Source: Promethearchaeota archaeon (GTDB taxonomy: Archaea > Asgardarchaeota > Lokiarchaeia > Sigyniarchaeales > Promethearchaeaceae). Taken from it: a stretch of DNA of 32,000 nucleotides. How positions within the stretch are numbered: the first letter of the stretch is position 1; every line of letters begins with the position of its first letter. Below the pieces are notes generated by a model that saw only the letters and a list, made by a program, of their open reading frames with translations, was not told the origin of the DNA and made no database searches. A program made the translations under genes and the position numbers. Positions 1-32,000 of the stretch are shown piece after piece. The stretch spans positions 570,001-602,000 of the forward strand of contig JAFGBS010000009.1 of assembly GCA_016933055.1 (NCBI GenBank), in the 5' to 3' direction.

Positions 1-2342
1 GCAATTGCAATTCTTTGTTTTTGACCTCCACTTAGAGTCTGCCCTCGCTCCCCAACCACCGTATCATATCCTTCTGGTAATGACATTATGTATTCATGAA
101 TTTTCGCAACTTTCGCAACAGTTATCATATCTTCCTCTTTAACCCGTTTTTTTCCGTAGCAGATGTTGTTCTTGATGGAACGGGAAAACAAAAAGGACTC
201 TTGAGCAACAATTCCAATTTGTTTTCGATAGTGTTTTAAATCCAGTTCTCTAATATCAATTCCGTCAATATAGATATTTCCAGTCGTTGTATCATAAAAT
301 CTTGGAATCAGATTAATAAGTGTGGTTTTTCCACTTCCTGTTGCTCCTAAAAACGCCACTGTTTCTCCCGTTTTAATGTCAATCGAAATATCCTGCAAAG
401 CTAACTTTGGTGCATGATCTTCCGTGAGATCATCATATGAAAAGCTAACCTCTTTAAATACAACATGACCGTTAAATTCGAATGGAATCACGGGCGTCGA
501 TGAGATTTCTTCAAATTTTGAATTCAGATGAATAGGATCAATTTTGGGGATGATTACTTCTTGAGGGATATCCAGAGGGATTTTTTTCATTCGCTTTTTA
601 TGAATCTTTTCAAACTGCTTGCGCAGTACTTCTTTTTCTAAACGTAAAAATGATAATGCATCTTGAGTAATTACTTTTGAACCGGTGGCGGTATCTTTTC
701 GAGTAGCTGGAACAATTCCTTTTTTAATTAATAATTTTTCATACTTTTTAGCTATTTCTATATGAACAAGAGGTTCGGGAGAATACATGGTTTTTTGGAG
801 CTCAATCACGCGATTTTGTTCATAATCATTTTCTGAGAAATATTCAATGTATAATAGCAGAGAGTCCATAGGATCTTTTCGTAGTTCAACTAGGGTAGTA
901 TCATAAATATTTCTTAAACGTCTATATACGTTTTCCATAAGATCGTTGTTTTCAAGAAGGAACAACAAATATTGGGCAATGAATGAAATTGGATTTGTCA
1001 AATCACTTGGTTTTGGTTCACTTAAAGCAAGTTCCTCCAGTTGTTCTAGGAATTCCGGTCTTTTAGTTAAAATTGCGATTTTCTGAGATAATGGAGTTAT
1101 AAAATTTAACCCATTAAAGATGATCGGTTCATTACCTTTGAAATAAATGGTTTCAACCGCACTAGTTTTGACATTTCGTGGAAGAATTGTTGTCTCTTCA
1201 AATCTTTTCAATATTCGTTTTGCACGTTTTTCCCGACGAGTTTCTTCTGGTTTTGGCATTCCAATAAGGGCATCAATAGTATCTATTATTTTTTCATCCT
1301 TAAGAAGGCGAATATACAGATCCCCCAGTGCTCGACTGGGATCAATAGGTTGATCTGGCACCTGAATCTCATTTCGATTGTCTATTATTTCATTTACTCG
1401 GTCTAATGCTGCTCGATTTGCAGATAATTCATTGAAGAAATTCACAATCATCCGAATGGGTTCATAAATCGTGATAAAATATACAAAAGTTGCTACAACA
1501 GATCCCAGAGAAAATACCCTGTCCCCAGGATGAGTAATTAACCATCCTCCAATAAATACAACAATGGCGCTTCCTGCCATTGTAAAATATTCAGATAAAG
1601 GAGAATATAAAGTCTGTAATCGAATAACTTGTTTACTTTTATTTAAAAAGTCCTCGTTATCTCTGTTATATTTATCCATCTCCATTTTTTGGCGACCAAA
1701 AGCTTTAACAACTCTCACACCCGTGATATTTTCTTCAATAGTGGATAGCATTTCTCCGCGGGCCTCATACATAGCCAGGGAAGAAGGATGGATTCGTTTG
1801 CGGTACCATCCCATGAGGATAAATAGAGGAGGGGTTAATCCTATGAAAACAAACGACATTATGGGATTTATCTGCCAGACATAATAAATTATTATAAACA
1901 AGGAAACCACATTCCGAATTAGATTTTGGAATTGATTTGCTAAGAAATTCTTTATAGCGTTTACATCCGATGTCGCTTTACTCATCAAATTGCCCGTCCG
2001 ATTTTTATCGTAGAAACTGTAACTTTGACGGGACAATGCCACAAAAATGTCATTGCGGATATTAAAAATAATATTTGTTCTCAAATTTTGCTGAACAATC
2101 ATCCTAACTAGCTCACAGATTCCCGCAATAAAGAAAATCAGAGCAAGTTGAATTATAAAAGTTCGAATGAGTCCAAATTGTCTTTTTTTTATAATATCAT
2201 CGATTAACACCGAAAAAAATTGGGGTAATCTCAGTGAAAATATATTTGAAGCAGTTGCGAATATCACTGATACTAGGATCAAATACCAGTATTTTTTGAA
2301 ATATTTTGCTAACACACCTTGCTTCTGGTTGGGATAGCTCAT
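1..2342 (-). CDS. ABC exporter, fused TMD+NBD (MsbA/Sav1866/TmrAB-like type IV), 3' end outside the window; contains an about 300-aa TMD-NBD linker
   Basis: Manual translation of the minus strand, open from ATG at 2342 to the window edge: MSYPNQKQGV..., SFYDKNRTGNLMSKATSDV, EENITGVRVVKAFGRQ, Walker A GATGSGKTT (about 345-320), Q-loop IGIVAQESFLF, signature VGERGQTLSGGQKQRIAIA at the edge. Absent from the ORF track because it has no stop in the window. Confidence 0.95.
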   Translation of the reverse strand, partial: MSYPNQKQGVLAKYFKKYWYLILVSVIFATASNIFSLRLPQFFSVLIDDIIKKRQFGLIRTFIIQLALIFFIAGICELVRMIVQQNLRTNIIFNIRNDIFVALSRQSYSFYDKNRTGNLMSKATSDVNAIKNFLANQFQNLIRNVVSLFIIIYYVWQINPIMSFVFIGLTPPLFILMGWYRKRIHPSSLAMYEARGEMLSTIEENITGVRVVKAFGRQKMEMDKYNRDNEDFLNKSKQVIRLQTLYSPLSEYFTMAGSAIVVFIGGWLITHPGDRVFSLGSVVATFVYFITIYEPIRMIVNFFNELSANRAALDRVNEIIDNRNEIQVPDQPIDPSRALGDLYIRLLKDEKIIDTIDALIGMPKPEETRREKRAKRILKRFEETTILPRNVKTSAVETIYFKGNEPIIFNGLNFITPLSQKIAILTKRPEFLEQLEELALSEPKPSDLTNPISFIAQYLLFLLENNDLMENVYRRLRNIYDTTLVELRKDPMDSLLLYIEYFSENDYEQNRVIELQKTMYSPEPLVHIEIAKKYEKLLIKKGIVPATRKDTATGSKVITQDALSFLRLEKEVLRKQFEKIHKKRMKKIPLDIPQEVIIPKIDPIHLNSKFEEISSTPVIPFEFNGHVVFKEVSFSYDDLTEDHAPKLALQDISIDIKTGETVAFLGATGSGKTTLINLIPRFYDTTTGNIYIDGIDIRELDLKHYRKQIGIVAQESFLFSRSIKNNICYGKKRVKEEDMITVAKVAKIHEYIMSLPEGYDTVVGERGQTLSGGQKQRIAI

Positions 2343-2546
2343 GATACCACAGAATCGGATTCGTCAAACGACAATAAAGTACCATCATTTAAAAAGGAAT
2401 TGAGCTAATAGGGTTGATTCTTACATTATTTTCTTGAAAGTTTAAACAGCTAATTAAGTAAAACTTAACTTTCTCTAAAGGAATGTCTTTCTGTGCATGA
2501 AAAAATTGGCTCTTATTATAATTTTATTCGTTTATAGGTAACGATT

Positions 2547-3941
2547 TCAATCTCTTTTTGTCGACTTCTCAAATATATGAAATTCCCTTCTGATTATCTC
2601 CGTATTATCATCATATAAAGACTTCTTATCTGCAAATAACTGAAGATCTTGATCAGATTTTTCTGCAATGAAACTATTGCCATAGATTGAAACTGGATAG
2701 CATCCGAATTCTGCAGCAATGTCTTCTATGTTAATTCTATAGCGTCCACCATCTAATGTCTCCACAGCGGGAGAAGTTACGACGATCCGGTGTCTCTCTT
2801 TAAGAATTTTGGATCCTTCTGAAAATAGTTTAGAATAGCTTGGAACAACAAGCTGCTCCATAACTGGTGATAACTGTTCATACCGAGGTAATTCTCGATA
2901 AAAAGGTAATAAATAAGGTTCAGAAACAATACCATCAAAAGAAAATTCCTTGAAAATGGAGGACAAATTTGCAATATCCCCCTCTTTATATTGATTTGCA
3001 TTGATTTTTTGAGGATTTTCAAGAATCTTTGAAACCCATTTAAGATTCTTAAGCGTTCCTTTGATGCGTTCAGGTTCAAGATCCATTCCATAAGTTTGGA
3101 TCCCCATGGTGTGTGCAAACAATAAAATGGTTCCTGAACCACAGAAAGGATCCAATATCCGATTACTAGCATTGGGTTTCTTTAAATGTAGTAGTCCTAA
3201 CATGATCTTTGCAAACTTCGGAGGAATACTGGATTTCACGTCCTTGTAAGGACGGTTCTCATCTAATTTTTTCATCTCATTCGAATTCGTAACATTTATT
3301 GTGTAGCCAATATGTATTCCCTCTTCGGTCATAACATACAACAATTCTTTGCGGTGATCTTGAAAGAGTTTATAAGCCCAGAAATGATGGGGAAAGAGAG
3401 GATTTAATGTGCCTTTATTAATTCGATCCTCAGGATAACGATAATATAATGCATTTTTTGCTCCTTTCTCTTTTAAAATTTTCATCCATTCTTTATTTAA
3501 GAAAGGTAGAAAATGCTGAACAAGAGTTTTATAATAGGCTTTTTGGAATGTAATACCGTAGATGGAATTTGCAACAAAATATTTAATCGGTTGAATTTTT
3601 CCAAAAATAGGGTAACAAGCATCCTTAAGGATATTTTCGATGTATTTTCGTTGTTTGGATTGGATTGTCATCTCAGATGTTATTTCTTTGGGAAAAGCTT
3701 CTTGAAAAGTTCGTAAATCAATAAATTCAACCAGTTTACCGATCTTTTGGGTTCCTCCTAATTGAAACATTAACCAGTCAAAATTTTTATCTTTTATAGG
3801 TTCCTGTTCAAATTCTACAACAGCGCCGGATGCAGAATAATCAGTTACACGACCTTTATATGGGGGACACTCCAAAATATTATTAATCTCAGCTAGTGAA
3901 AGTCTCCAGTTTGTACCTAAGATGAAAATGAATCTAGACAT
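2547..3941 (-). CDS. THUMP/UPF0020-type tRNA guanine-N2 methyltransferase (Trm11/TrmG10-like)
   Basis: N-terminal FILGTNWRLSLAE resembles the Trm11 start; IPPKFAKIML; SAM motif LDPFCGSGTILL; motif IV is EPY rather than DPPY. Confidence 0.75.
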   Translation of the reverse strand: MSRFIFILGTNWRLSLAEINNILECPPYKGRVTDYSASGAVVEFEQEPIKDKNFDWLMFQLGGTQKIGKLVEFIDLRTFQEAFPKEITSEMTIQSKQRKYIENILKDACYPIFGKIQPIKYFVANSIYGITFQKAYYKTLVQHFLPFLNKEWMKILKEKGAKNALYYRYPEDRINKGTLNPLFPHHFWAYKLFQDHRKELLYVMTEEGIHIGYTINVTNSNEMKKLDENRPYKDVKSSIPPKFAKIMLGLLHLKKPNASNRILDPFCGSGTILLFAHTMGIQTYGMDLEPERIKGTLKNLKWVSKILENPQKINANQYKEGDIANLSSIFKEFSFDGIVSEPYLLPFYRELPRYEQLSPVMEQLVVPSYSKLFSEGSKILKERHRIVVTSPAVETLDGGRYRINIEDIAAEFGCYPVSIYGNSFIAEKSDQDLQLFADKKSLYDDNTEIIRREFHIFEKSTKRD

Positions 3942-4068
3942 TGTGGTAATTTTCCATAATTATATTTGTGCATTGGTATTATCGGGATTTCATTAGGTTT
4001 TTCATTTCCATGAAAATTAATCTGATAAAGGGGATAATTCAAATAGCAAAGGAAATATTAGACAACCC

Positions 4069-5193
4069 ATGGAACAAAATCTCAAATCTATATGCTTTGA
4101 TTATTCTCATAACAATCGATTAACGATTGAAAATACAGCTTATGCAGATTTTATCCATTTTCTTTTTACAAGTAGTTATAAGGTTGGGAAAATAACTACA
4201 GGAATCACTTCCGAAAAGTTAGAACCTTACGACGTATTAGTTCTTGGGAGTCCCCTTGAATCTACCTTAACACCGTATGAAATTGAAATAATATTGGAGT
4301 TTGTCAAACAAGGGGGTGGTTTATTGGTCATCAATGATGATGGTGGAGATGAAGGAAATAAAACTAATCTAAATGATTTAACATCTATATTCGGTTTCAA
4401 GTTTAATCCAGATGTATTATCAGACAGTATGAATTATATCCGTCAACAAAACCGACCCCTCATCTCCAAATTAGAGAAACATTACGTAACCCAAGAAGTG
4501 GAGGAATTTGTTCACGCTTCTGGATGTACACTCACGGTAGAAGAAATCCTATCGGAGGATCCCAATGTTGATATACACATCTTGGCTCGTAGTGGTTTGA
4601 ATGCATTCACCAAATTACTAAATGGAGATGAAAGCGACAGTCCTAATGTCCCTGTTCTTGTGGGTGTGAATTATTATAAGGGAAAAGTAGTCGGAATTGG
4701 AAATCTGTCCTTTTTGTCCTCCCTAAGTTCTAGTTACGGATTTAATGCCTATGACAATAACGTCTTAGCATCTAATATCTTCAATTGGCTAGGGTATTCC
4801 ATGGAATCTAATGGACTGTCCTATGAAAATAAAATTGTGAGTGTTCCTCTCAACTATGCATTGTATATATGGGTAGAAAAACTGATAGAAAACCAAGAAT
4901 GGGGTTCCTTTAGTGATATTACCAACTTTGCTTTAAAATATGTGAAAGATCATTATGATCGAGTCATTGAGGAAAGTACAGCAATAAAGAAAAAACTACA
5001 GGAACTCAAAGATGAAAAGAAGAAGGATGCAAAAGCAAAGGCTCAAAAGTTGGACAAAGAAAGAAAGAAGAGTTTAGAGGAAATAGAAGACTCGTTATAT
5101 AATCTATTGGATGAGAAAGAAAAACGAGAAAAAGATACAATCAAAGATATAATGAGTGCGTTAAAGAAATATGAAGAGAAAGGCGAAGATTAA
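4069..5193 (+). CDS. Soluble GIFT (GldG/IFT52/DUF4350-like) domain protein with a putative RHH segment and C-terminal coiled coil
   Basis: DVLVLGSP...EFVKQGGGLLVINDDGGDEGNKTNLNDLTSIFGFKFNPD...GKVVGIG...DNNVLASNIFNWL pattern; highly charged helical C-terminus; no signal peptide or TM segment seen. Confidence 0.6.
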   Translation: MEQNLKSICFDYSHNNRLTIENTAYADFIHFLFTSSYKVGKITTGITSEKLEPYDVLVLGSPLESTLTPYEIEIILEFVKQGGGLLVINDDGGDEGNKTNLNDLTSIFGFKFNPDVLSDSMNYIRQQNRPLISKLEKHYVTQEVEEFVHASGCTLTVEEILSEDPNVDIHILARSGLNAFTKLLNGDESDSPNVPVLVGVNYYKGKVVGIGNLSFLSSLSSSYGFNAYDNNVLASNIFNWLGYSMESNGLSYENKIVSVPLNYALYIWVEKLIENQEWGSFSDITNFALKYVKDHYDRVIEESTAIKKKLQELKDEKKKDAKAKAQKLDKERKKSLEEIEDSLYNLLDEKEKREKDTIKDIMSALKKYEEKGED

Positions 5194-5265
5194 GACTTAA
5201 GATTCGATAATGATACATAAAAACCGTCCAGTTCTCCGACACATTCATTTTATGAATTATACTTC

Positions 5266-5281
5266 AAAAGTTTTTTAAATA
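5266..5281 (+). promoter_or_regulatory. Putative archaeal BRE/TATA promoter for the 5358 gene cluster
   Basis: aaaagttttttaaata; followed by a 9-bp hairpin (taagaagaa/ttcttctta, 5296-5326) and SD-like aaggagg before ATG 5358. Confidence 0.4.
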
Positions 5282-5357
5282 CTAAGACCCAAATATAAGA
5301 AGAATGTGGATTAGTCTTTCTTCTTAAGAATACCCATTTGTAAAGGAGGGCTCCCTA

Positions 5358-5624
5358 ATGGTTTATTACAATAAAATTCTTAAAGAGTGCGTCGAAGCAA
5401 TCAATAAATGTGTTGATAAGAATTACACCGACATTACTGTGAAGCGTATTCGAAAATGCAACGACATTCCCTCCTCTGATCGTTCTCGTATTCATTTTAT
5501 TTCCAGAGCTCTTGAAGATCTAAAAACACAAGGACATCTTCAATTAATTGGACGAAATTCACCCAAAGTATATAAAATTTTAAACAAAATTTCTTTTAAG
5601 AGTGTAAAAGATCAGTCTAAATAA
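5358..5624 (+). CDS. Small basic hypothetical protein, putative winged-helix; paralog of 6513..6803
   Basis: 88 aa, SD-like aaggagg upstream, shared motifs with 6513..6803 (VEAIxxxVDK, IxRAL, NxPK-YK). Confidence 0.6.
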   Translation: MVYYNKILKECVEAINKCVDKNYTDITVKRIRKCNDIPSSDRSRIHFISRALEDLKTQGHLQLIGRNSPKVYKILNKISFKSVKDQSK

Positions 5625-5651
5625 GATCTTGATCTACATGGTGATTTTTTT

Positions 5652-6449
5652 TTGAAGATAGGTGTAGCAGGCAAAGGTGGTACGGGAAAAACTTTGATTG
5701 CGGGAACTCTTGCACGGTTTTTCGCAAAATCTTTCAAAGTACTGGCAATAGATAATGATCCCTCTATGAATTTGATCTATTCCTTGGGAATGGATCCGGC
5801 ATTACGCAATGAGATTACACCGATTGCCCATATGACAAAACTAGTCCTAGAACGAACGAGTATAGAAGGAGCAGGATCAGTTATTTATAAAGCTAATCCC
5901 TATGTGTCTGATATTCCTGATACCTTTAAGATCCATGGTCCTGATAATCTAGAACTGCTTGTATTAGGAACGGTGGAGCAACCCAGCTCGGGATGTTTAT
6001 GCGCACCTAATGTACTAGTACGTTCATTGCTTTCTGATTTGATTCTGAACCGCGATGAAGTGGTTATTGTGGATTTCGAAGCCGGAATAGAACACATTAG
6101 TCGGGGTACCGGTAAATCTATTGATGTAATGCTAATTGTTACAGGAGCTTATCAAAAAAGTCTGGATCTAACTGAAAAATTATCTAGATTATCACAGGAA
6201 TTAGGTATTAAGAAGACTTTTCTCATAGGTAACATGATAGAAAATAAACAATCTGAAGAATTTTTACATAATTGGGCGGAAGATAATAGCCTTGAGATAA
6301 TTGGTATAATTCCACGAGATCCAGATATTATTCGATGTGAACAAATTGGCGAGTCTCCATATGATACCATTCGAATGACCTCTCCGGCATTGAACGAGAT
6401 AAAACGCATTTTTCAAAATCTAAAGCGGTATTATATCGACTCAGAATAA
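5652..6449 (+). CDS. cooC: CooC/AcsF-family nickel-binding ATPase (MinD/ParA superfamily)
   Basis: Deviant Walker A GKGGTGKT, IDNDP, metal-binding GCLC, VIVDFEAGIEHISRG; TTG start. Confidence 0.9.
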   Translation: MKIGVAGKGGTGKTLIAGTLARFFAKSFKVLAIDNDPSMNLIYSLGMDPALRNEITPIAHMTKLVLERTSIEGAGSVIYKANPYVSDIPDTFKIHGPDNLELLVLGTVEQPSSGCLCAPNVLVRSLLSDLILNRDEVVIVDFEAGIEHISRGTGKSIDVMLIVTGAYQKSLDLTEKLSRLSQELGIKKTFLIGNMIENKQSEEFLHNWAEDNSLEIIGIIPRDPDIIRCEQIGESPYDTIRMTSPALNEIKRIFQNLKRYYIDSE

Positions 6450-6512
6450 CTTTAAAAAGTACCAAATAGAATTGGTTTTAACGTACCTAATTATCACTTC
6501 CATTGAAATAAT

Positions 6513-6803
6513 ATGTTTGATCGATTTAAAAAAAAGGAAAAACCATTGCGGGAATTTCTTGTTGAAGCCATTGATTTTTTGGTAGATAAACAAGTTTCTG
6601 AGACTCTAATACTGTCTAGTTATAAAATCAATACGGTTTTTAAGACTAATTTCGGAGTTACCTTTCGAGTTGATCGTATAGGAAGAGCCCTTAGTAGGTT
6701 TGCTAAAAAGAACAAATTGGAGCGACTAGATACTAATATTCCTAAATATAAATTAACTGTCTCTCAATACCGTGCTTCTAAAATAGATGATGACGAGGAA
6801 TAA
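6513..6803 (+). CDS. Small hypothetical protein, putative winged-helix; paralog of 5358..5624
   Basis: 96 aa with the same motif spacing as 5358..5624; acidic tail DDDEE. Confidence 0.6.
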   Translation: MFDRFKKKEKPLREFLVEAIDFLVDKQVSETLILSSYKINTVFKTNFGVTFRVDRIGRALSRFAKKNKLERLDTNIPKYKLTVSQYRASKIDDDEE

Positions 6804-6830
6804 ATTCAAACTACGTATTATTCATAAACA

Positions 6831-7613
6831 ATGATTTTTATGAGCGAAAAAGCATACATTCGTTCTATTGAACGGGGTGTTTCCTTCCTTAAAAAAACTA
6901 TGGAGTTGAAAAATCCCAGAAGAACAATCAAAATGGGAAGAAAATCGGTAAAATTTCTTAGAAAAGCTATAACGATCGCAGAAAAGATTGGATTACGAAA
7001 AAAGATTCCTTTTATCTACGAATATTTACAACAAGTACAGGCTACATTAGGTGCTAATTACTTAGAGTTGAAGAAACATCAAGATGCGATTAAAATTTTT
7101 CAACATGCATTGGAATCAAATTCCAAATCTCCACAAAACACAAAACAAATAGAAATTAAATCCCTTCTTCTTGCCGAATTAGCGAAAATTTATGCCAATG
7201 ATTTGGGCAATTTGAAGAAAGCAGAAAAGTATGCGAATCGCTCCCTTAAATTGGGATTAGATAAGAATTATAACCAAGAGGATCTCTTGGATCTATATCT
7301 TGCCCTTAATTCAATTTATTTAAGAATAGGAAATATTGATAAAATTAGTAAAAATTATCGAATGATGGTGAAACTGGCAAAGAGAGACAAACGTAAGCAG
7401 TTAAAGGCGCAAATATATTACACCTATGGAAAATTCTTGCATAGTATCAAAAATGACGCCGGGGAGAGTCGAAAATATTTACGGAAATCTCAAACATTAT
7501 TCGAATCTTTAGGATCCCATCAACTTTGTGAAGAAGTGACAAAATTTATTGAAGAAAATTTGAGTCCTATCGACTCGAATAATCACATAACGGATAATCT
7601 AAACCCTTCTTAA
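6831..7613 (+). CDS. TPR-like helical repeat protein
   Basis: Repeated TPR-like helices (LGANYLELKKHQDAIKIFQHAL; LAKIYANDLGNLKKAEKYANRSL; YGKFLHSIK..ESRKYLRKSQTLF). The start may be ATG 6840. Confidence 0.7.
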   Translation: MIFMSEKAYIRSIERGVSFLKKTMELKNPRRTIKMGRKSVKFLRKAITIAEKIGLRKKIPFIYEYLQQVQATLGANYLELKKHQDAIKIFQHALESNSKSPQNTKQIEIKSLLLAELAKIYANDLGNLKKAEKYANRSLKLGLDKNYNQEDLLDLYLALNSIYLRIGNIDKISKNYRMMVKLAKRDKRKQLKAQIYYTYGKFLHSIKNDAGESRKYLRKSQTLFESLGSHQLCEEVTKFIEENLSPIDSNNHITDNLNPS

Positions 7614-7804
7614 TGCATTGCGAATATATTTTAACTCCCTTTTCTTATGTTCGTAATAGCTCAATTTAAGTTGAAAATTGAAGAACCTCCTCAATTCATA
7701 ATGAAATTTAAAGCCTTAAATAGGGAAATAAAATAGTTTTTGAAAGATTAATCATTTATCTAGTATAAAACTCTATATAAAGTATTAATGTTTTCCACAA
7801 AGAC

Positions 7805-7971
7805 TTATATATTGAAAAATCTTAACGGATATAGAGAAAACCTAATAATACCTATTATGGTCTACAAATTGGTTTAAACTTTGATTAAACCAGCGCATGT
7901 CTTAAAAATAAGATTAAGCTTGAAATTTAAGACACATGCCTTAGCAAAAACAACGAACATTAGGAGGAGGT
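7805..7971 (+). promoter_or_regulatory. Putative TATA box, two-hairpin leader and strong SD upstream of the B12-binding gene
   Basis: ttatatat 7805-7812; ggtttaa/ttaaacc (7871-7891); gcatgtcttaaa/tttaagac(ac)atgc (7895-7939); aggaggaggt 7962-7971. Confidence 0.4.
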
Positions 7972-7981
7972 TAAAAGTCAA

Positions 7982-9682
7982 ATGAGCAAAAATCAACCAA
8001 AAAATAACAAGATATTAGGAGCTTGCATTGGAGATTGTATCCATGTTGCCGGGTTGACGAAATTCTTTCGCATAGCTAACCAATATGGTTATGAAACTAC
8101 GTTTGTCGGTGCAGCGATGCCGATTCAAAAAATTATTACAGAAATACAAAAATCTTCCGCAAAAATTATAGCTTTATCTTACCGTTTAACTCCGCAAGTT
8201 GGAGTATCACTTTTAAAACAGTTAATTCAAGAAGTAAAGAAACACAATTTAACCAATCGGGATTACTATTTGGGTTGTTTACCTGAGTTAGAACAGCATG
8301 CAGTAAAATTTAATTTCTTTAAAAAAATTTTCACAGGTGGGGAGGCACTAGATGAATTATATTCAATATTTCAAGTTGGAATAATAAAAGATGATGTACT
8401 CAGCTATCCTACGGATCTTATATCGAGAATACGCATGAAAGCACCGTATCCGATTTTTCGTGCACATTTCGGTTTACCATCATTAGATGACACCTATAAA
8501 GGCATTCAAGAAATTGCAGAATCTAAGATGTTGGATGTGATCTCAATTGCTCCCGATCAAGCTGCACAAGAATGGTTTCACCATCCTGATATCATTCATC
8601 GAAGACCAAAAGGATCTGGTGGAGTCCCTATCAGGAAAAAAGAACATTTGGAACAAATGTATTCACAAAGTCGTACCGGAAATTACCCTTTGATGCGAAT
8701 CTATTCTGGCACCCAAGATTTAGTGAAGAATGCTGAATTATTTCAATCCTCAATACAAAATGCTTGGGCAGCGATTCCTATCTTTTGGTATTCTAAATTG
8801 GATGGAAGAGGACCATTGCCTATACAAAAAGCTATACAAGAGCATTTTCTCGCTATACAATGGCATGCGAACCATAATATTCCAGTAGAAGTGAATGATC
8901 CCCATCAATGGGGCTTACGACAAGCAACTGATCAGATGGTAGTGGCTGATGCATACCTTTCAGCTAAAATTGCAAAGGAACTGGGCGTGAGATATTATAT
9001 AGAGCAACTTATGTTCAATACTCCCGCAGGGAATACCTTTAGCATGGATTTTGCTCGTGTTCTTGCAATGATTGATATAATAATTCCATTAGTTGATGAG
9101 AATTTTGAAGTGTTTAAAGAAACCAGGACAGGTTTAGCATATTTATCAACTGATCCGACCGTTGCAAAGGGACAGCTTGCAGTATCTAGTATGATGCAAT
9201 TAGCTGTTCAACCGCATATAATGCATGTAGTATCATATTCAGAGGCCAGTCACGCAGCAAAAGCTATTGATGTAATTAAAAGTTGTAAGATGGTAAGTAA
9301 TATTATTCAAGATAGTCTCGGCAATCTTCCCGATTACACCTTGGACCAAAAAATCATCCAACGGAAAAATGAACTCATCCACCAAGCGCACATCTTAATA
9401 AATGCATTTGAGCACTTGGGAAATAAAATGGGTGTTAAAAATCCCTATCTATCTTCCGAATGCTTAAGTGAGGCTGTTCGCATTGGACTGTTCGATGCAC
9501 CTCAAGTAAAAGGATTTTCTGGAGCAAAAGGAAAAATCCATACGGAAATTGTAGACGGAAAGTGTATTACAATTGATTCGAGCGGACAAGAAATAGATGA
9601 GATTCAAAGAATGGCAGAGTTAGGGATTCTCGATGAATCGGTCAAAAAACTAGTATCATTAAAACCAGGTGTAACCAAATGA
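7982..9682 (+). CDS. Cobalamin-binding domain + probable TIM-barrel protein of unknown function
   Basis: N-terminal Rossmann B12 domain: GDCIHVAG (variant DxHxxG), IALSYRLT, FTGG. It is followed by about 430 aa with no radical-SAM CxxxCxxC motif. Confidence 0.8.
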   Translation: MSKNQPKNNKILGACIGDCIHVAGLTKFFRIANQYGYETTFVGAAMPIQKIITEIQKSSAKIIALSYRLTPQVGVSLLKQLIQEVKKHNLTNRDYYLGCLPELEQHAVKFNFFKKIFTGGEALDELYSIFQVGIIKDDVLSYPTDLISRIRMKAPYPIFRAHFGLPSLDDTYKGIQEIAESKMLDVISIAPDQAAQEWFHHPDIIHRRPKGSGGVPIRKKEHLEQMYSQSRTGNYPLMRIYSGTQDLVKNAELFQSSIQNAWAAIPIFWYSKLDGRGPLPIQKAIQEHFLAIQWHANHNIPVEVNDPHQWGLRQATDQMVVADAYLSAKIAKELGVRYYIEQLMFNTPAGNTFSMDFARVLAMIDIIIPLVDENFEVFKETRTGLAYLSTDPTVAKGQLAVSSMMQLAVQPHIMHVVSYSEASHAAKAIDVIKSCKMVSNIIQDSLGNLPDYTLDQKIIQRKNELIHQAHILINAFEHLGNKMGVKNPYLSSECLSEAVRIGLFDAPQVKGFSGAKGKIHTEIVDGKCITIDSSGQEIDEIQRMAELGILDESVKKLVSLKPGVTK

Positions 9683-10836
9683 TAGATTATAATAATGTAG
9701 CAATTATTGGTGCTGGAAATGGAGGAAGAGCAACTGCAATATATCTCAGAAACCGTGGATTTAACATAAATCTTGCATTTCGCACCTTTGAAAAGATAAA
9801 AACTATTTATTTCACTAAACAAATTCGTTCACAAGGGAAATTGAACGGTATTTTTGATTTAGATTTAATCACTCCTGAATACTCTCAATTGATGGCTGAA
9901 GATGTCGGAGTAATTATATACGTACTTCCTGCAAATGTACACGCTGATATAACTCGGAAAATTGCCCCTTTCCTTCAGAATAATCAAATTATTTTATTAA
10001 CTCCTGGTAGAACATGGGGTGCAATTGAAGTTAATAACATCATAAAAAGATTGCGACCCGAATTACGAGTATATGTTGGTGAGACACAAACACTTCCCTT
10101 CACAAGCCGATCAATAGAAGATAAAGGAGTAGATCTTATCGACATTAAAAACCAGGTTAAATATTGTTTTTACCCAGAAAAATACAACCAACGTGTTTCC
10201 AAAACAATATTCAAGCTATTCCCTCGTCTCTTGAGCGTGGATGATATAAGAATAACCAGTTTAAATAATATTGGTGCAATGGTTCATCCGGCAGGATTAA
10301 TATTAAACACAGGTACCATTAGTCGAAAACAAGATCTCTTATTCTACTCTGAAGGAATGAGTAAGGATGTTGTGAAAATCGTAGAGCAAGTCGATACAGA
10401 GCGTTGCACTATTATGAAACTCTTAGGGCTGAAACCCGTAAATTTCCTGCAATGGGCAACTGAAGTGTATAATGTCAGGGAAAAAGATTATTACTCCACA
10501 TTTCAGCACATCCGAAGCTATCAAGCTATTTCAGCACCAAAGCAAATGAATGTTAGATATATAACCGAAGATGTACCTACGGGATTAGTTCCTATCTCTT
10601 CAATTGGAAAATTTCTTGGAATACCAACTCCCGCTACGGATGCTCTTATTAACATTGCAAACATTTTAATGGATACAGATTTTCGGGTAACCGGACGGAC
10701 GACTAAAAATGTGGGAGTCCCAGTTAATCTCTTAATACCAAAGGAAGAACAAAAATATATTGTATCCAAGGTTCAAGAATTAACTCACGAAGATATAAAT
10801 ATCAATGTAACGAATGATAAATCTTCATCATCTTAA
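9679..10836 (+). CDS. NAD/NADP octopine/nopaline (opine) dehydrogenase family protein
   Basis: IIGAGNGG Rossmann motif, GETQTLPF, NNIGAMVHP, RYITEDVPTGLVP; ATGA overlap with the upstream gene. Confidence 0.9.
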   Translation: MIDYNNVAIIGAGNGGRATAIYLRNRGFNINLAFRTFEKIKTIYFTKQIRSQGKLNGIFDLDLITPEYSQLMAEDVGVIIYVLPANVHADITRKIAPFLQNNQIILLTPGRTWGAIEVNNIIKRLRPELRVYVGETQTLPFTSRSIEDKGVDLIDIKNQVKYCFYPEKYNQRVSKTIFKLFPRLLSVDDIRITSLNNIGAMVHPAGLILNTGTISRKQDLLFYSEGMSKDVVKIVEQVDTERCTIMKLLGLKPVNFLQWATEVYNVREKDYYSTFQHIRSYQAISAPKQMNVRYITEDVPTGLVPISSIGKFLGIPTPATDALINIANILMDTDFRVTGRTTKNVGVPVNLLIPKEEQKYIVSKVQELTHEDININVTNDKSSSS

Positions 10837-10921
10837 TTTTTTAGTACATCTAAAGAGTGAGATATATTTTTTTAGGTAGAATAACCAATGACACCTATAT
10901 ATGAAGTTATAGAGGACCATA

Positions 10922-12721
10922 ATGGCACCTAAACAAAGGAAATCAAAAGCCTCCTTAAAAAAGGAGGACAAATCAATTTTCCACACAGTGAAATTGTATC
11001 TCACTGGGAAATCAGATCATCAAAAAAAAACTACAGAAATTTTTTGGGGGAAAAAATTCACATTATTGATCACACTGTTTTTTTTCTACTCTTTTGTGTT
11101 AATATCAAATTGGGAAAATGAATTTTTCAAATACATTACCCTAGAGAACCCTTATGCACTTTCGGTCTCATTAGTATTCACTTTTTTTATGCTCACCTTC
11201 TTTTTCCTCAATTCCAAGTTGAAGCGATTTTTATTTGGCCCGTATAGTTTTTTAAAACAATTACCACTCTTTTTTGGATTACTATATGGTAGCTTCTTCC
11301 TATGGAGATATTTAGTCAATATAGGGTGGAATATATTACCTACCCTCCTCGTACTTGCAATGTTTTGGTTGATTATCCAAGGTGTGCGTGTATACGATAC
11401 TAGCAGAAAATTTGCAAGTAAAGTGGAAGTAAAGACCTTGAAGCGATACTCTCCTACTGTAAATATGCTAATTACCTTAATTCCGTTCTTAATCCTAATT
11501 ATTTTGACTGTAGGTGTATGGTCTTATAGGTATGGACTAGTTTGGTTCACTTTGGATATTATTACTTTTTTAGGAGGTGATCCTAGTACTGCAGTGTTGA
11601 TGTATTCCGTGGAAATGAACGTTATATTACCGTTTCTGTATATTTCTTTGATTGTAATATTCGTTTTGTTTGCAGTAGAATTGATAATGACCAGGTTAAG
11701 GGTAGAAAATAAAAGAATGGGAACCTTTGATAATTTTGCTTATTCTTTAATCGTATTTTTTATGTTTTTGTACTTAATTTACCAAATTTCCCTATATTTA
11801 GTATTGCATTCCAAAACCCAGCTTGCCTTAGGGAGTATTGCAGGAGCAACAAGTGGAACATCGTATTTTTTCTATTTTGAATTTTTGATCTCGGTAATTT
11901 TCCTATTTCGAGGAATTCGTATTTTAGGAAAATCCATTGGAGGTAATTTTCTATTTTTCAATAAAGATTCCTTAATAATGATATTTCTCGCAACAATAAC
12001 AGCACAAACGGCCTCACGTATTCCAATATTTTCTGAAATTTCTACCCAAAATGTCGGAATATTATCTAACTTAATCAATATGGACCATTTATTAATTCCG
12101 GCATTGATTATTCTTTTTTTAGGTCTAACAATTGTGATCTATTATATTCGTCCCCAGCAAACTTCTATGTTTTTACGAACCCATAAATCATTAGTTGCAA
12201 GCGAGGAGGAGAAAGGACAAATAATCTTTGAATTTCTTAAACGGGAATTTGTACGAAGAGGAAAACCTTTTCCACTCACCGATGTAGATAATCAACTTAT
12301 TGCATTAACAGGTGCATCCAAATCTACTGTTCGAAACATCATCCAACGAGATTTAGATCCACAATATATGGAATTACAAATTTTTACTGAAGGTGCAAGA
12401 AAATTTGTCGAGTTTATTTCTATTCATGATTCCTATGAACGAAAATCTGATGCCACGGGTCGAGTAAAACACTTTATGTCCGATAGGTTATCTAAAACTC
12501 TCTCTGAGGATAAGGATGATCTGGGAATTTCAAAAGGTGCAAGTTCTGCTGTGGAAGAGCGAAAAACCTTTCTTGCAGCTTTAGATTCGAGTTATAAGAA
12601 GAAAACCAGTGAACCGCAAAGTAAAGAAGATTTACGGGATATCAAACATATTCAAGACAAAAAAGATTCAGAACTAATGTTTAAACGAGCGAAAAAACAA
12701 AATAGGAAGAAAAAAACATAA
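10922..12721 (+). CDS. Hypothetical multipass membrane protein (about 10 TM) with a soluble C-terminal domain
   Basis: Many hydrophobic 20-aa segments in residues about 45-410, then a soluble, partly wHTH-like domain and a basic tail. Confidence 0.75.
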   Translation: MAPKQRKSKASLKKEDKSIFHTVKLYLTGKSDHQKKTTEIFWGKKFTLLITLFFFYSFVLISNWENEFFKYITLENPYALSVSLVFTFFMLTFFFLNSKLKRFLFGPYSFLKQLPLFFGLLYGSFFLWRYLVNIGWNILPTLLVLAMFWLIIQGVRVYDTSRKFASKVEVKTLKRYSPTVNMLITLIPFLILIILTVGVWSYRYGLVWFTLDIITFLGGDPSTAVLMYSVEMNVILPFLYISLIVIFVLFAVELIMTRLRVENKRMGTFDNFAYSLIVFFMFLYLIYQISLYLVLHSKTQLALGSIAGATSGTSYFFYFEFLISVIFLFRGIRILGKSIGGNFLFFNKDSLIMIFLATITAQTASRIPIFSEISTQNVGILSNLINMDHLLIPALIILFLGLTIVIYYIRPQQTSMFLRTHKSLVASEEEKGQIIFEFLKREFVRRGKPFPLTDVDNQLIALTGASKSTVRNIIQRDLDPQYMELQIFTEGARKFVEFISIHDSYERKSDATGRVKHFMSDRLSKTLSEDKDDLGISKGASSAVEERKTFLAALDSSYKKKTSEPQSKEDLRDIKHIQDKKDSELMFKRAKKQNRKKKT

Positions 12722-28856: not shown

Positions 28857-28934
28857 ATGGCCAAAAAAACAACAAAAGCAAAAACACCAAAGAAAACAAC
28901 TAAAAAAACCAAAAAGAAATCTACTAAGAAATAA
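28857..28934 (+). CDS. 25-aa Lys/Thr-rich micro-protein MAKKTTKAKTPKKTTKKTKKKSTKK (not in the ORF track)
   Basis: ATG 28857 to TAA 28932-28934, translated by hand; SD-like aagga upstream; synonymous codon variation (aaa/aag; aca/act/acc); hairpin downstream. Confidence 0.6.
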   Translation: MAKKTTKAKTPKKTTKKTKKKSTKK

Positions 28935-29050: not shown

Positions 29051-29900
29051 GATATATTTTTTATCTGCATTGTGGTCGATAAATCCTACCCATTATCATA
29101 CCCCCAAATTAAAATACTCTTCTTCAATGCCATTTCTGTGTTAAATACTTCTTGCACGGTTGATTTGAAAAAAAGTGTATACTCTACAGCAGAGTTCAAG
29201 AAATTTGATAACATTGCCTTGGATCCAGATTCTTTTTGAACATTGGGATTTTGGAAAGTTAATTTAATTATATCCTCGATAACCATATTGGGATCCAACT
29301 TGTAATTCAATCCGAAAGTAATAGATCTGGTGACGATATGTGTTTTTTGACCGTAATTGATAACATCTGATTAGAAATTCTTGATTGGGTACAGAAATTT
29401 CGGTGTTGTCCAGATGACGCAATTTAGTATAAACGAATCGAATCTGGAACACCTCCGCGATTTTTTCTTGATATTTTATTCGATCTCCAACACGGAATGG
29501 TTTGGTTGTCATTAATATTAATCCAAAAATGACATTCCCGATGGTATTTACCGAAGCAAAACCGAAAATGGTTGCACCAGAGAATGCAAAAATTCCAGTT
29601 ACTAATCCTGATGCTTCAGAAAAGAATACAATGAAAAGTAAACTGACATAAAATACAATAAATCTTTGAATGCTTTGACGTGCAATTTTATCGATCTTAC
29701 CCCCACTTTTCCACTTTTTTCAATTGGGGAATGATAACCAAACGTGTCATAATCCAATAAAAGAATAAAAGAAATACTACTATGCTAATTTTGATTAGAT
29801 TTCCATAGGTAGGGTCCCTTTTATCAAAAGGTTTTTGTTTCCATTCCCAAATCGCTAACAAAAAACTTAGTATCAATAATAAGATAGATAATTGATAATT
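29047..29900 (-). pseudogene. mscS: MscS-family small-conductance mechanosensitive channel, frameshifted
   Basis: TM3/beta-domain motif GATIFGFASVNTIGNVIFGLILMTTKPFRVGDRI and ISVPNQ..VINY. Frameshifts at the T6 run 29715-29720 and near 29371, an in-frame TAG at 29088-29086, and no intact start. Confidence 0.8.
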
Positions 29901-30342: not shown

Positions 30343-31272
30343 ATGTCTGAAAAAAACGATATGACGGGATGGATCCTTTTCAAAAGAAAGTCTGAAACTA
30401 CTCCAGGTTGGGGATCTTATGCCGTAAATAGATTAATGGATGTAGCACCTTCCCGAAACATTTCCCTTAAAGTAATTTCCCCCGATAATTTTGATCTTAT
30501 TATTACCCGAGAGAAAAAGACCACATGGATAAATCAACAAGTTGAAAAAATTCCTGATTTTGTCATAACCAGAGTAGGTTCTGGTGCAAGTTATTTTTCT
30601 CTTGCAATAATTCGACATTTAGAACGGTTAGGAGTACATACCTTTAATTGCTCAAAGGGAATAGATATCGTTCGGGATAAATTATATGCCCAACAAGTTT
30701 TGGTTCAAAGCAACCTTCCTGTTCCAAAAACAATTCTAGTAAAATTCCCGGTGAACATCGATTTAGTAGAAAGATATCTAGGTTTTCCCGTAATAGTAAA
30801 AACTGTATTCGGTTCTAAAGGAGCTGGAGTATTTCTATCGGAAGACAGAAGATCATTCGTCGATCTGATGCAGCTTTTAGAAGCAACTAAACCTAATGTG
30901 AATATCATCCTTCAAGAAACAATTACCACTAGTCTTGGAAAAGATTTGCGAGTTTTTGTAGTTGGTGGAAAAATAATAGGATGTATGCAAAGAACCAGTA
31001 AAACTGACAGCTTTAAAGCAAATTTCTCCGCAGGGGCAGATGTAGAGGCATATCCTATCAATTCTGAAATCGAATGGCTAGCAAGACAAAGCGCACGAAC
31101 TTTATCATTGGATATTGCGGGAATTGATCTCTTATTTGATGGGGAGCATTTTAAAATATGTGAGGTCAATGCATCCCCTGGATTTAATGGTCTTGAGCAA
31201 GCAAATCCAGGATTAAATGTTCCCAATGAAATATTTGATTACATATCCTTGCGATTGGGAGAGTTTGATTAA
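30343..31272 (+). CDS. rimK: RimK-family ATP-grasp alpha-L-glutamate/amino-acid ligase
   Basis: PDFVITRVGSG, DKLYAQQVL, FPVIVKTVFGSKGAGV, ILQETI, DLRVFVVGG, FKANFSAG, IAGIDLL, CEVNASPGFNG. Confidence 0.9.
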   Translation: MSEKNDMTGWILFKRKSETTPGWGSYAVNRLMDVAPSRNISLKVISPDNFDLIITREKKTTWINQQVEKIPDFVITRVGSGASYFSLAIIRHLERLGVHTFNCSKGIDIVRDKLYAQQVLVQSNLPVPKTILVKFPVNIDLVERYLGFPVIVKTVFGSKGAGVFLSEDRRSFVDLMQLLEATKPNVNIILQETITTSLGKDLRVFVVGGKIIGCMQRTSKTDSFKANFSAGADVEAYPINSEIEWLARQSARTLSLDIAGIDLLFDGEHFKICEVNASPGFNGLEQANPGLNVPNEIFDYISLRLGEFD

Positions 31273-31274
31273 AA

Positions 31275-32000
31275 TTGAAATTTCAATCCTCACCTAAAAT
31301 ATATCAAAATTTTAAGAGTGCGACACCAGAGAATACCCTAAAAAGCCTAACAAATTGTATGCAGCCCTATTTTTTACCACACATGCAATTTCGAGTAAAA
31401 CCTAATTTATATGGCACCGCATGGGGTGCTCAAATGACTTTATTTGGGAATTATGATTATAATGTGAGATCTAATGGAAAGGGAGACACTCCACACTTGG
31501 CAATCTTGAGTGCCCTGGCAGAATTCACTGAGCGAGTTCAGAGTTTTTTACCTTTTCCAATTGCGAATTATCTGCCGCGACTAATGTTAAAACCAGATTT
31601 GGATAAAAATCATCCAGAATATCAAAAATGGGTGGACTTCAATAAAATTTTGAAAAATGAAACGAATAATAAAACTCCCGCTTTTGAACCTTTTGATACC
31701 ACATTTTACAAATTTTACGATGTTATTGAGAACAAGGAGATATACTTGGATCAATCATTCCTTATTTCTCCTAGTAATGGTCGAGCTGCAGGAAATACAT
31801 ATGAAGAAGCAGTAGTAATGGCGATCACTGAAGTCTTCGAACGATATACGACCAGAATGGTTTTATTGAATAATGAAGCTGTCCCCACAATTTCTCTTGA
31901 ATTTTTATCGAATGATCTTCAGGAATATATCAATTCCATAACAAAGGATGATTTCGAGGTATATATCAAAGATTTTTCATTGGGTAAAGGTTTTCCCGTG
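31275..32000 (+). CDS. ycaO: YcaO-family ATP-dependent peptide backbone modification enzyme, 3' end outside the window
   Basis: Manual translation from TTG 31275: ...FKSATPENTLKSL...SNGKGDTPHLAILSALAEFTERVQ...SNGRAAGNTYEEAVVMAITEVFERY...IKDFSLGKGFPV. It shows both the GKG..SA..E..ER and SNGxAAGNTxEEA..E..ER YcaO motifs. Not in the ORF track. Confidence 0.9.
   Translation, partial: MKFQSSPKIYQNFKSATPENTLKSLTNCMQPYFLPHMQFRVKPNLYGTAWGAQMTLFGNYDYNVRSNGKGDTPHLAILSALAEFTERVQSFLPFPIANYLPRLMLKPDLDKNHPEYQKWVDFNKILKNETNNKTPAFEPFDTTFYKFYDVIENKEIYLDQSFLISPSNGRAAGNTYEEAVVMAITEVFERYTTRMVLLNNEAVPTISLEFLSNDLQEYINSITKDDFEVYIKDFSLGKGFPV

What the first reader, a model, noticed from the sequence alone, without database searches (positions are those of the whole stretch)
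30343..32000. RimK-like ATP-grasp ligase coupled to a YcaO enzyme: candidate peptide-modification (RiPP-like) system
Seen: a YcaO ORF missed by the track begins (TTG 31275) 2 nt after the rimK-like stop, with intact GKG..SALAEFTER and SNGRAAGNTYEEA..EVFER motifs. Known: YcaO enzymes phosphorylate peptide backbone amides to form azolines, thioamides or amidines. RimK-family ATP-grasps add amino acids to protein C-termini, and related enzymes crosslink graspetides. Both act on ribosomal peptides or proteins. Inference: this may be a two-enzyme post-translational modification cassette in a probable Asgard archaeon. Its substrate is unknown; candidates are the co-oriented Lys/Thr-rich 25-mer 1.4 kb upstream, a ribosomal protein, or a precursor right of the window.
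Basis: partly seen in the sequence, partly recalled or inferred. Interest (0 to 1): 0.68.

Follow-up and report, generated by a model that had tools for sequence, protein, structure and literature searches.

The report
RimK-type ligase and YcaO operon
An Asgard archaeon carries a tightly coupled gene pair, a glutamate-adding RimK-type ligase and a complete YcaO enzyme that chemically alters peptide bonds; the pair is real and rare and sits in a small block with another ligase and a transporter, but nothing marks it as a classical modified-peptide (RiPP) cluster and its substrate is unknown.

Summary
A 309-aa RimK-family ATP-grasp gene (30343-31272) is followed 2 nt later by a YcaO gene starting at TTG 31275. 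The YcaO runs past the window to a complete 617-aa protein.

YcaO has intact ATP/Mg motifs and folds like E. coli YcaO: a core plus a YcaO_C helical domain. It also has a C-terminal four-Cys motif that E. coli YcaO lacks.

RimK passes only the general rimK_fam model. It fails the S6-ligase, MptN, CofF and LysX models.

The pair is the only YcaO and the only RimK in this genome. It recurs on just three metagenomic contigs of close relatives and was not found in 400 other Asgard genomes.

No precursor gene, E1/RRE partner, dehydrogenase or TfuA was found, so the RiPP reading is not supported.

The operon converges, 11 nt apart, on a glutathione-synthetase-fold (circularly permuted ATP-grasp) ligase and a CitMHS-type permease. 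In another Loki-order genome the RimK and that ligase are convergent neighbours with no YcaO. YcaO therefore looks like a lineage-specific addition to a two-ligase module.

Best guess (about 0.35): a build-and-tailor module for an acidic, Glu-containing peptide chain.

This same stretch was also noted by the scan from an overlapping window. No RimK-YcaO pair turned up in its notes on other genomes.

The parts
30343..31272 (+). rimK-family ATP-grasp ligase, 309 aa (some gene calls start at Met7, giving 303 aa)
   Evidence: Pfam RimK 2.3e-41 plus Rimk_N 2e-11. TIGR00768 rimK_fam scores 205 bits against a cut-off of 143. All equivalog models fall below cut-off: MptN 151/350, S6 ligase 135/331, LysX 124/276, CofF 89/300. 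Best solved relatives are E. coli RimK 5zct/4iwx at 1e-36. It is the only RimK-family gene in the genome.
31275..32000 (+). YcaO gene, in-window part. The full gene runs to 33128 in window numbering (L002:3275-5128) and encodes 617 aa.
   Evidence: The AF2 model has pLDDT 91.3 and pTM 0.91. The best fold match is E. coli YcaO 4q84-4q86 over both domains, TM 0.61-0.65, E 3e-19. The C-terminal part resembles PF18381 YcaO_C. The four-Cys motif is C571, C578, C581, C587. It is the only YcaO in the genome.
31257..31277 (+). rimK-ycaO junction: GGGAGAG (31257-31263), rimK stop TAA (31270-31272), 2-nt gap, ycaO start TTG (31275-31277)
   Evidence: Read directly. An in-frame TGA at 31266-31268 fixes TTG 31275 as the first possible start.
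28857..28934 (+). Probably an independent gene.
   Evidence: A lysine-rich homologue lies just after the aminotransferase gene in same-genus genome G001. It is separated from rimK by an MscS remnant on the opposite strand.
29086..29876 (-). Frameshifted remnant of an MscS-type mechanosensitive channel gene. It is a spacer between the micro-ORF and rimK, not part of the system.
   Evidence: PF00924 beta-domain 9e-9 on 29264-29509, with neighbouring fragments in other frames.

Best explanation
The rimK-family ligase and a complete EcYcaO-type YcaO with intact catalytic motifs form a two-gene operon. The 2-nt gap suggests translational coupling.

The operon is one arm of a compact convergent four-gene block: rimK then ycaO on one strand, facing a glutathione-synthetase-fold ligase ('P485') and a CitMHS-type anion permease on the other.

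My best reading is an ATP-driven build-and-tailor module for an acidic, glutamate-containing peptide chain:
- The two ATP-grasp ligases make or extend the chain, either as a free oligopeptide or as a tail on a carrier or protein C-terminus.
- YcaO phosphorylates one backbone amide of that chain and converts it to a thioamide, amidine or azoline-type product.
- The permease moves the precursor or the product.

Shown: gene structures, the 2-nt gap, intact motifs, folds, conservation of the block in the close clade, and recurrence of the RimK/P485 pairing without YcaO.

Inferred: that the enzymes share a substrate, and what that substrate is.
For: 1. Coupling. The 2-nt gap and the single possible start are seen. 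The N-terminus is conserved.

2. Conservation in the close clade. All three close YcaO homologues (68-72% identity) come from contigs whose source and length match those of close RimK homologues (79-86%) and close P485 homologues (80-83%). The matches are ncbi 8647, jgi 7325 and Logan 13503. The 7325 copy of P485 lacks its N-terminus, which would fit a contig end inside a convergent gene, though the frame begins with Met and truncation was not shown.

3. Pairing without YcaO. In Loki-order genome G014 the RimK homologue (45%) and the P485 homologue (46%) are convergent and 4 nt apart, with no YcaO. The own-clade and G014 copies are not sisters in either FastTree tree.

4. P485 fold. It is the circularly permuted ATP-grasp fold of eukaryotic glutathione synthetase and glutathionylspermidine synthetase (Foldseek prob 1.0, but TM only 0.3-0.4). 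It has an N-terminal ENNSCPSG ExN motif. The solved relatives with a known function (glutathione, homoglutathione and glutathionylspermidine synthetases) ligate small peptides or amines.

5. From established knowledge, RimK-family members include small-molecule Glu ligases (MptN, CofF; NAAG and beta-citrylglutamate synthases).

6. The permease gene lies 10 nt upstream of P485.

7. No RiPP accessory genes or precursor were found nearby, and no TfuA in the genome.

8. Both genes are single-copy. RimK orthologues were found in only 2 of 400 Asgard genomes, which argues against a core cofactor role.
Against: Every characterised YcaO acts on a ribosomally made peptide or protein. The closest structural relative, E. 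coli YcaO, recognises the tertiary structure of uL16 (PMC13063428).

The contigs that keep the block come from close relatives, so shared synteny is weak evidence of shared function. The co-location was inferred from matching contig lengths and sources, not from reading the DNA, and gene order there was not seen.

Each component also occurs without the others:
- P485 pairs with an AstE/AspA deacylase in G115 and Chondrinema.
- A 55.6%-identical RimK stands alone in Pseudoalteromonas.
- Distant Loki-order YcaOs have unrelated neighbours.

No product, substrate or expression data exist.
Confidence: 0.35

Rival explanations
1. Independent functions. YcaO is a stand-alone protein-modifying enzyme, for example a TfuA-independent thioamidase of some housekeeping protein, as E. 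coli YcaO is for uL16. It landed between RimK and P485 and merely shares a transcript with RimK.
For: The full two-domain fold matches E. coli YcaO. E. coli YcaO works alone on a folded protein, with no partner gene nearby (PMC13063428). G014 has RimK and P485 without YcaO. The nearest relatives of this YcaO are archaeal (Loki-order 28-31%, Theionarchaea 35%). RimK and P485 are closest to large groups that include many bacterial proteins (55-60%), which suggests different origins. Distant Loki YcaOs have no RimK nearby.
Against: The 2-nt gap suggests translational coupling. The arrangement is retained in every close YcaO homologue known. The gene is very rare for a housekeeping modifier: it has no orthologue in the same-genus genome or in 13 same-family genomes. 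Its pI of 5.97 is far from the 4.4 of uL16-type enzymes.
Confidence: 0.3
2. A two-enzyme post-translational modification pair acting on one gene-encoded protein, probably basic and encoded elsewhere. RimK adds C-terminal glutamates and YcaO alters a backbone amide of the same protein. This mirrors E. coli, where RimK (bS6) and YcaO (uL16) are both ribosomal-protein modifiers.
For: The best solved relatives of both proteins are the E. coli ribosomal-protein modifiers. The YcaO catalytic core is acidic (pI 4.78 for residues 67-391), which would fit a basic substrate, as electrostatic complementarity does for EcYcaO-uL16 (PMC13063428). The two genes are co-transcribed.
Against: bS6 does not exist in archaea (established knowledge). 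Both NCBIfam equivalog models fail by a wide margin: S6 ligase 135/331 and YcaO_for_S12 67/700. A modifier of a conserved protein should be widespread, but this pair is confined to one small clade. No candidate target was identified.
Confidence: 0.18
3. One reading: a canonical RiPP-like cassette whose precursor is a nearby small ORF, such as the Lys/Thr-rich 25-mer.
For: The 25-mer is co-oriented and rich in Thr, a possible azoline or ester donor. The acidic YcaO core could bind a polycation. YcaO with graspetide-type ATP-grasp clusters exists in bacteria (PMC8939145).
Against: The micro-ORF is 1.4 kb away, behind a decayed MscS gene on the other strand. It ends in Lys-Lys, unlike the acidic C-terminus of RimK's known acceptor, S6 (established knowledge). 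Its same-genus homologue differs in length and sequence. No RRE/E1 partner, dehydrogenase, protease or exporter of RiPP type is nearby. TIGR03604 scores 55 against a cut-off of 219. There is no other small ORF next to the operon: the gap to the next gene downstream is only 11 nt.
Confidence: 0.07

Closest known systems
E. coli YcaO (PDB 4q84-4q86), the uL16 Met82 backbone thioamidase (Rice et al. 2026, PMC13063428)
   Same: Stand-alone YcaO of about 600 aa with a YcaO core plus the YcaO_C helical/TPR-like domain (TM 0.61-0.65 over the full length). The ATP/Mg-binding residues are conserved. There is no E1/RRE partner and no TfuA.
   Different: Only 18% identical. The NF040716 equivalog scores 67 against a cut-off of 700. 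pI is 5.97 against 4.4. It has an extra C-terminal four-Cys motif and an internal insertion that E. coli YcaO lacks. It is archaeal, rare and operonic with a RimK ligase.
E. coli / Pseudomonas RimK (PDB 4iwx, 5zct, 7qyr), the ribosomal protein S6 poly-alpha-L-glutamate ligase
   Same: Same family and domain layout, Rimk_N plus the RimK ATP-grasp domain.
   Different: Below the S6-ligase equivalog cut-off (135/331). A long branch separates E. coli RimK from a large subfamily of 55-58% homologues, many bacterial, in which this protein nests. Its acceptor cannot be bS6, which archaea lack. No RimB-type protease gene was seen among the annotated neighbours.
Graspetide-type ATP-grasp + YcaO + TfuA loci ('branch 6', Makarova et al. 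2022, PMC8939145)
   Same: An ATP-grasp ligase gene associated with a YcaO gene. That paper states the association had not been reported before.
   Different: There the ATP-grasp is a graspetide macrocyclase relative sitting with TfuA, radical SAM and other RiPP genes in bacteria. Here it is a RimK-family alpha-L-glutamate-type ligase, TfuA was not found in the genome, and no RiPP accessory genes are present.
Circularly permuted ATP-grasp ligases of the glutathione synthetase / glutathionylspermidine synthetase fold (1m0w, 5oes, 2io7, 3n6x, 3k1t, YgiC/YjfC)
   Same: The convergent neighbour P485 has this fold and the permuted motif order.
   Different: No Pfam model matches it and no PDB sequence matches it. 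Its usual partner elsewhere is an AstE/AspA deacylase. Here and in G014 the partner is RimK.

Membership tests
YcaO superfamily (PF02624) | YcaO domain match above the Pfam cut-off | tested here: met
   108.7 bits against a cut-off of 25.7, covering profile positions 1-324 of 325
YcaO superfamily (PF02624) | Conserved ATP/Mg2+-binding residues (S-x3-E-x2-E-R; NG-x-A-x-G-N..EEA; E-x2-E-R) | tested here: met
   S79, E83, E86, R87, G169, G173, N174, E178, E186 and E189 are invariant in an alignment that includes E. coli YcaO
EcYcaO-type uL16 thioamidase group | Two-domain architecture: YcaO core plus YcaO_C/TPR dimerisation domain | tested here: met
   Foldseek TM 0.61-0.65 over about 650 columns to 4q84-4q86. 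The C-terminal part is closest to PF18381 clusters.
EcYcaO-type uL16 thioamidase group | NCBIfam equivalog NF040716 above cut-off | tested here: not met
   67 bits against a cut-off of 700
EcYcaO-type uL16 thioamidase group | Strongly acidic protein (pI about 4.4) complementary to uL16 | tested here: not met
   pI 5.97 for the whole protein; close homologues 5.8-6.5. Only the catalytic core is acidic, at 4.78.
Azoline-forming TOMM/LAP cyclodehydratase (SagD type) | TIGR03604 above cut-off | tested here: not met
   54.9 bits against a cut-off of 219
Azoline-forming TOMM/LAP cyclodehydratase (SagD type) | E1-like/RRE partner, fused or adjacent, with a Cys/Ser/Thr-rich precursor gene next to it | tested here: not met
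   Only 66 residues precede the YcaO domain. The neighbours are RimK, P485, a CitMHS permease, a Roadblock-domain protein and HGD-D proteins. No adjacent small ORF is present.
TfuA-dependent thioamide-forming YcaO (McrA / thioamitide type) | TfuA gene adjacent or elsewhere in the genome; TIGR03266 match | tested here: not met
   PF07812 was not found in the 91%-complete genome. TIGR03266 scores 37 against a cut-off of 365.
RimK family alpha-L-glutamate ligases (TIGR00768) | Subfamily model above cut-off; Rimk_N plus RimK ATP-grasp domains | tested here: met
   205.5 bits against a cut-off of 143.4. Pfam RimK 2e-41 and Rimk_N 2e-11.
Specific RimK-family functions (S6 ligase, MptN, CofF, LysX) | Equivalog model above its cut-off | tested here: not met
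   135/331, 151/350, 89/300 and 124/276 respectively. An orthologue-level match (E <= 1e-50) was found in only 2 of 400 Asgard genomes.
RiPP biosynthetic gene cluster | A precursor peptide gene conserved next to the modifying enzymes | tested here: inconclusive
   None is adjacent. The only candidate is a 25-codon ORF 1.4 kb upstream, which also occurs in G001. The DNA of the homologous contigs could not be fetched.
Fe-S or zinc-binding module on YcaO | Four cysteines that bind a metal | not testable with these tools
   The motif C-x6-C-x2-C-x5-C is invariant in the four close homologues. A C-x2-6-C-x2-C-x5 to 8-C version recurs in most of 64 relatives.

The most novel reading that the evidence does not exclude
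YcaO here tailors a peptide chain that is not made by the ribosome. The chain would be an oligo-glutamyl or glutathione-like product built by the two neighbouring ATP-grasp ligases. This would be the first ribosome-independent YcaO substrate and a new route to thioamide, amidine or azoline-containing small metabolites in an Asgard archaeon. The conserved four-Cys tail might serve in sulfur or metal handling.
Probability: 0.13. Interest if true: 0.8.

Novelty: new variant of a known kind. Interest (0 to 1): 0.45.

Why it matters
YcaO enzymes are known only as tailors of ribosomal peptides and of two proteins (McrA and uL16). RimK-family ligases are known as C-terminal or small-molecule glutamate ligases. 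I found no description of an operon joining the two.

If the enzymes share a substrate, this would be a new type of amide build-and-tailor pathway. It might also be the first YcaO acting on a ligase-made chain.

The wider clade of stand-alone YcaOs with a four-Cys tail, which I also could not find described, may bear on how sulfur reaches TfuA-independent thioamide-forming YcaOs. Rice et al. 2026 leave that question open.

Against this, the pair is extremely rare: one genome plus three metagenomic contigs. No substrate is in sight, so the practical weight is modest.

Tried and rejected
Co-location was inferred from identical source and contig length for three proteins. The listing of cluster members gave no accession numbers for them.
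- The search for related loci on genome contigs and metagenome contigs, with the single protein and with an alignment, found nothing.
- Synteny could not define an island. The same-genus genome G001 breaks into separate contigs at this spot. In closed family genomes the flanking aminotransferase and HGD genes lie far apart. G+C is uniform at 29-40%.
- Distant Loki-order YcaOs (28-31%) were inspected for a conserved partner. Their neighbours differ (MFS transporter, glycosyltransferase, SNF2 helicases) and their RimK-like genes lie on other contigs.
- A RimK homologue and a YcaO homologue both listed a 2044-nt contig. I rejected this as coincidence because both genes cannot fit on a contig that short.
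- The sigma-70 promoter and terminator scan gave counts equal to shuffled sequence and does not apply to an archaeon.
- The micro-ORF was not found within 2 kb downstream of the aminotransferase gene in three closed family genomes, using a crude Lys/Arg filter. Its independence from the cassette is therefore shown only weakly, by G001.
- Cofactor-ligase and LysX readings of RimK were rejected on model scores and on its rarity.
Full report
**Observation**

The window is G000:C17:570001-602000 of a 3.76-Mb, 91%-complete genome. A 309-aa ORF runs from ATG 30343 to TAA 31270-31272. A second ORF opens at TTG 31275, 2 nt later. In the second frame a TGA at 31266-31268 leaves TTG 31275 as the first possible start.

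Residues 1-36 are conserved in homologues and are confidently modelled. The long form is therefore real, although some gene calls begin at Met37. A GGGAGAG lies 11-13 nt upstream of the start.

Fetching the contig beyond the window (L002) shows that the YcaO ORF is complete at 617 aa.

**The two proteins**

RimK-like protein:
- Pfam RimK 2e-41 plus Rimk_N.
- TIGR00768 rimK_fam passes (205 against 143).
- Every function-specific model fails: MptN 151/350, S6 ligase 135/331, LysX 124/276, CofF 89/300.
- The best solved relatives are E. coli and Pseudomonas RimK.

YcaO:
- The full-length PF02624 match is 4.9e-31. All specific NCBIfam models are far below cut-off.
- An AF2 model from a 64-sequence alignment is confident (pLDDT 91.3, pTM 0.91).
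- The model matches E. coli YcaO over both domains (TM 0.61-0.65). RiPP heterocyclases and the McrA enzymes match only the core.
- The C-terminal 225 residues resemble PF18381 YcaO_C.
- The ATP/Mg residues are invariant against E. coli YcaO.
- The protein ends in a four-Cys motif, C571-x6-C578-x2-C581-x5-C587. The motif is invariant in the close homologues and recurs as C-x2-6-C-x2-C-x5 to 8-C in most of 64 relatives. E. coli YcaO lacks it.
- pI is 5.97 overall and 4.78 for the core. The uL16-thioamidating E. coli enzyme has pI 4.4 (PMC13063428).

**Distribution**

The genome has one YcaO and one RimK-family gene. TfuA was not found.

Among 5.8 billion clustered proteins, YcaO has only three close homologues, at 68-72% identity. 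A search of 1.84 billion representatives found just 15 proteins at E <= 1e-30. The nearest full-length one is a Theionarchaea protein at 35%.

In 400 genomes of the phylum:
- No other genome has an orthologue-level YcaO. Seventeen of the 400 match at E <= 1e-10, and the best match outside this genome is 2.5e-55 at about 28-31% identity.
- Only G014 has a RimK at E <= 1e-50.

The phylum is Asgardarchaeota by inference. G109's P485 is near-identical to a protein named Kariarchaeaceae, and the family holds closed genomes of 4.3-6.0 Mb.

**Is the adjacency conserved?**

I therefore matched source and contig length instead. The three close YcaO homologues come from an NCBI contig of 8647 nt, a JGI contig of 7325 nt and a Logan contig of 13503 nt. 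Close RimK homologues (79-86%) and close homologues of the downstream 485-aa protein (80-83%) come from contigs of exactly those sources and lengths.

The 7325-nt copy of the 485-aa protein lacks its N-terminal 103 residues. That would fit a contig end inside a convergent gene, but the frame begins with Met, so truncation is not shown.

The block is therefore kept in every close relative known. These relatives are closely related, so this is weak evidence for function. The more distant Loki-order YcaOs (28-31%) have RimK-like genes only on other contigs, and their neighbours vary.

**The neighbourhood**

Downstream of ycaO, 11 nt from its stop, a convergent 485-aa gene ends. A CitMHS-family permease gene lies 10 nt upstream of that gene on the same strand. 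Beyond these lie unrelated genes for a Roadblock-domain protein, two HGD-D proteins and a formyltransferase. Upstream of rimK are an ADP-forming acyl-CoA synthetase-like gene, an aminotransferase, the Lys/Thr micro-ORF and a frameshifted MscS remnant.

The 485-aa protein has no Pfam match and no PDB sequence match. It belongs to a very conserved family with thousands of members at 57-60% identity. The motif ENNSCPSG sits near its N-terminus. Its model (pLDDT 72, pTM 0.79) matches eukaryotic glutathione synthetase, glutathionylspermidine synthetase, YgiC/YjfC, 3n6x and 3k1t with Foldseek probability 1.0, although the TM-scores are low at 0.3-0.4. This is the circularly permuted ATP-grasp fold, and the relatives of known function are small-molecule amide ligases. 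The ESM Atlas agrees.

**The key comparison**

In G014, a Loki-order genome of a different family, the RimK homologue (45%) and the 485-aa homologue (46%) are convergent and 4 nt apart. There is no YcaO between them and no CitMHS gene nearby.

In FastTree trees the own-clade and G014 copies are not sisters, either for RimK (rooted on E. coli RimK) or for the 485-aa family (midpoint-rooted). Support values were not inspected. The RimK/485-aa pairing therefore recurs at two separate places in both families.

Elsewhere the 485-aa family pairs with an AstE/AspA deacylase, in G115 and on a Chondrinema plasmid. A 55.6%-identical RimK stands alone in Pseudoalteromonas. YcaO thus looks like a lineage-specific insertion into a two-ligase module. 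Its nearest relatives are archaeal, while both ligases are closest to large groups that include many bacterial proteins.

**Interpretation**

None of the usual RiPP components turned up:
- no adjacent precursor gene;
- no RRE/E1 partner, dehydrogenase or TfuA gene;
- no RiPP-type protease or exporter gene.

The YcaO is of the protein-targeting E. coli architecture.

I rank four readings:
1. A shared-substrate build-and-tailor module acting on a ligase-made acidic chain: 0.35.
2. Independent functions sharing a transcript: 0.30.
3. A PTM pair acting on one gene-encoded basic protein: 0.18.
4. A canonical RiPP using the 25-mer or another small ORF: 0.07.

The first rests on the coupling, the compact convergent block, the recurrent RimK/485-aa pairing and the small-molecule character of the relatives of both ligases. 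It goes against all YcaO precedent.

**Literature**

No held paper links RimK and YcaO functionally. Makarova et al. 2022 report YcaO and TfuA next to graspetide-type ATP-grasps and state that this association was new. Rice et al. 2026 assign E. coli YcaO to uL16 thioamidation and note that further protein substrates, and the sulfur route, remain unknown. I found nothing on a Cys-rich tail of YcaO or on RimK in Asgard archaea.

**Verdict**

The feature is real. The RiPP framing is unsupported, and the fuller picture is a four-gene block built around two ATP-grasp ligases. It is a new variant of known kinds. Interest is moderate, because the pair is very rare and no substrate can be named.

Noticed in passing
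L002:5140-6600 (-), i.e. 1140-2600 nt beyond the window end: A 485-aa protein with no Pfam match belongs to a very conserved family (thousands of members at 57-60% identity in Bacteroidota, Myxococcota, Asgard archaea and some fungi). It has the circularly permuted ATP-grasp fold of glutathione synthetase. Its partner is an AstE/AspA deacylase in some genomes and RimK in others.
   Followed up: yes
YcaO residues 569-589 (L002:4979-5041); relatives in alignment A3: A C-terminal four-Cys motif (P-x-C-x2-6-C-x2-C-x5 to 8-C-x-Y) is shared by most of a broad clade of about 600-aa stand-alone YcaOs but is absent from E. coli YcaO. It could be an Fe-S or zinc site. I found no paper on it.
   Followed up: partly
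window 29086-29876 (-): A frameshifted remnant of an MscS-type mechanosensitive channel gene. The PF00924 beta-domain sits on one fragment, with flanking fragments in other frames.
   Followed up: partly
window 28857-28934 (+); L039:3799-3897 in G001: A Lys/Thr-rich 25-codon micro-ORF with a lysine-rich 32-codon counterpart just after the aminotransferase gene in the same-genus genome. A crude filter did not find it within 2 kb of that gene in three closed family genomes.
   Followed up: partly
L043 (G002:C313) 1847-11968 (-): Two 845-aa YcaO fusions, each with about 330 extra N-terminal residues, alternate with SNF2-family helicase genes in a co-directional array. This is an unusual context for a YcaO and might be defence-related.
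   Followed up: no
L033 (G115:C4) 4876-10774: A fused IcmF-type B12 mutase (B12-binding, MeaB and mutase domains; 1123 aa) is followed by the 485-aa-family ligase, which is convergent with an AstE/AspA deacylase.
   Followed up: partly
L002:8349-11171 (+): A Roadblock/LC7-domain protein gene lies directly upstream of a pair of 2-hydroxyglutaryl-CoA dehydratase D-component-like genes.
   Followed up: no
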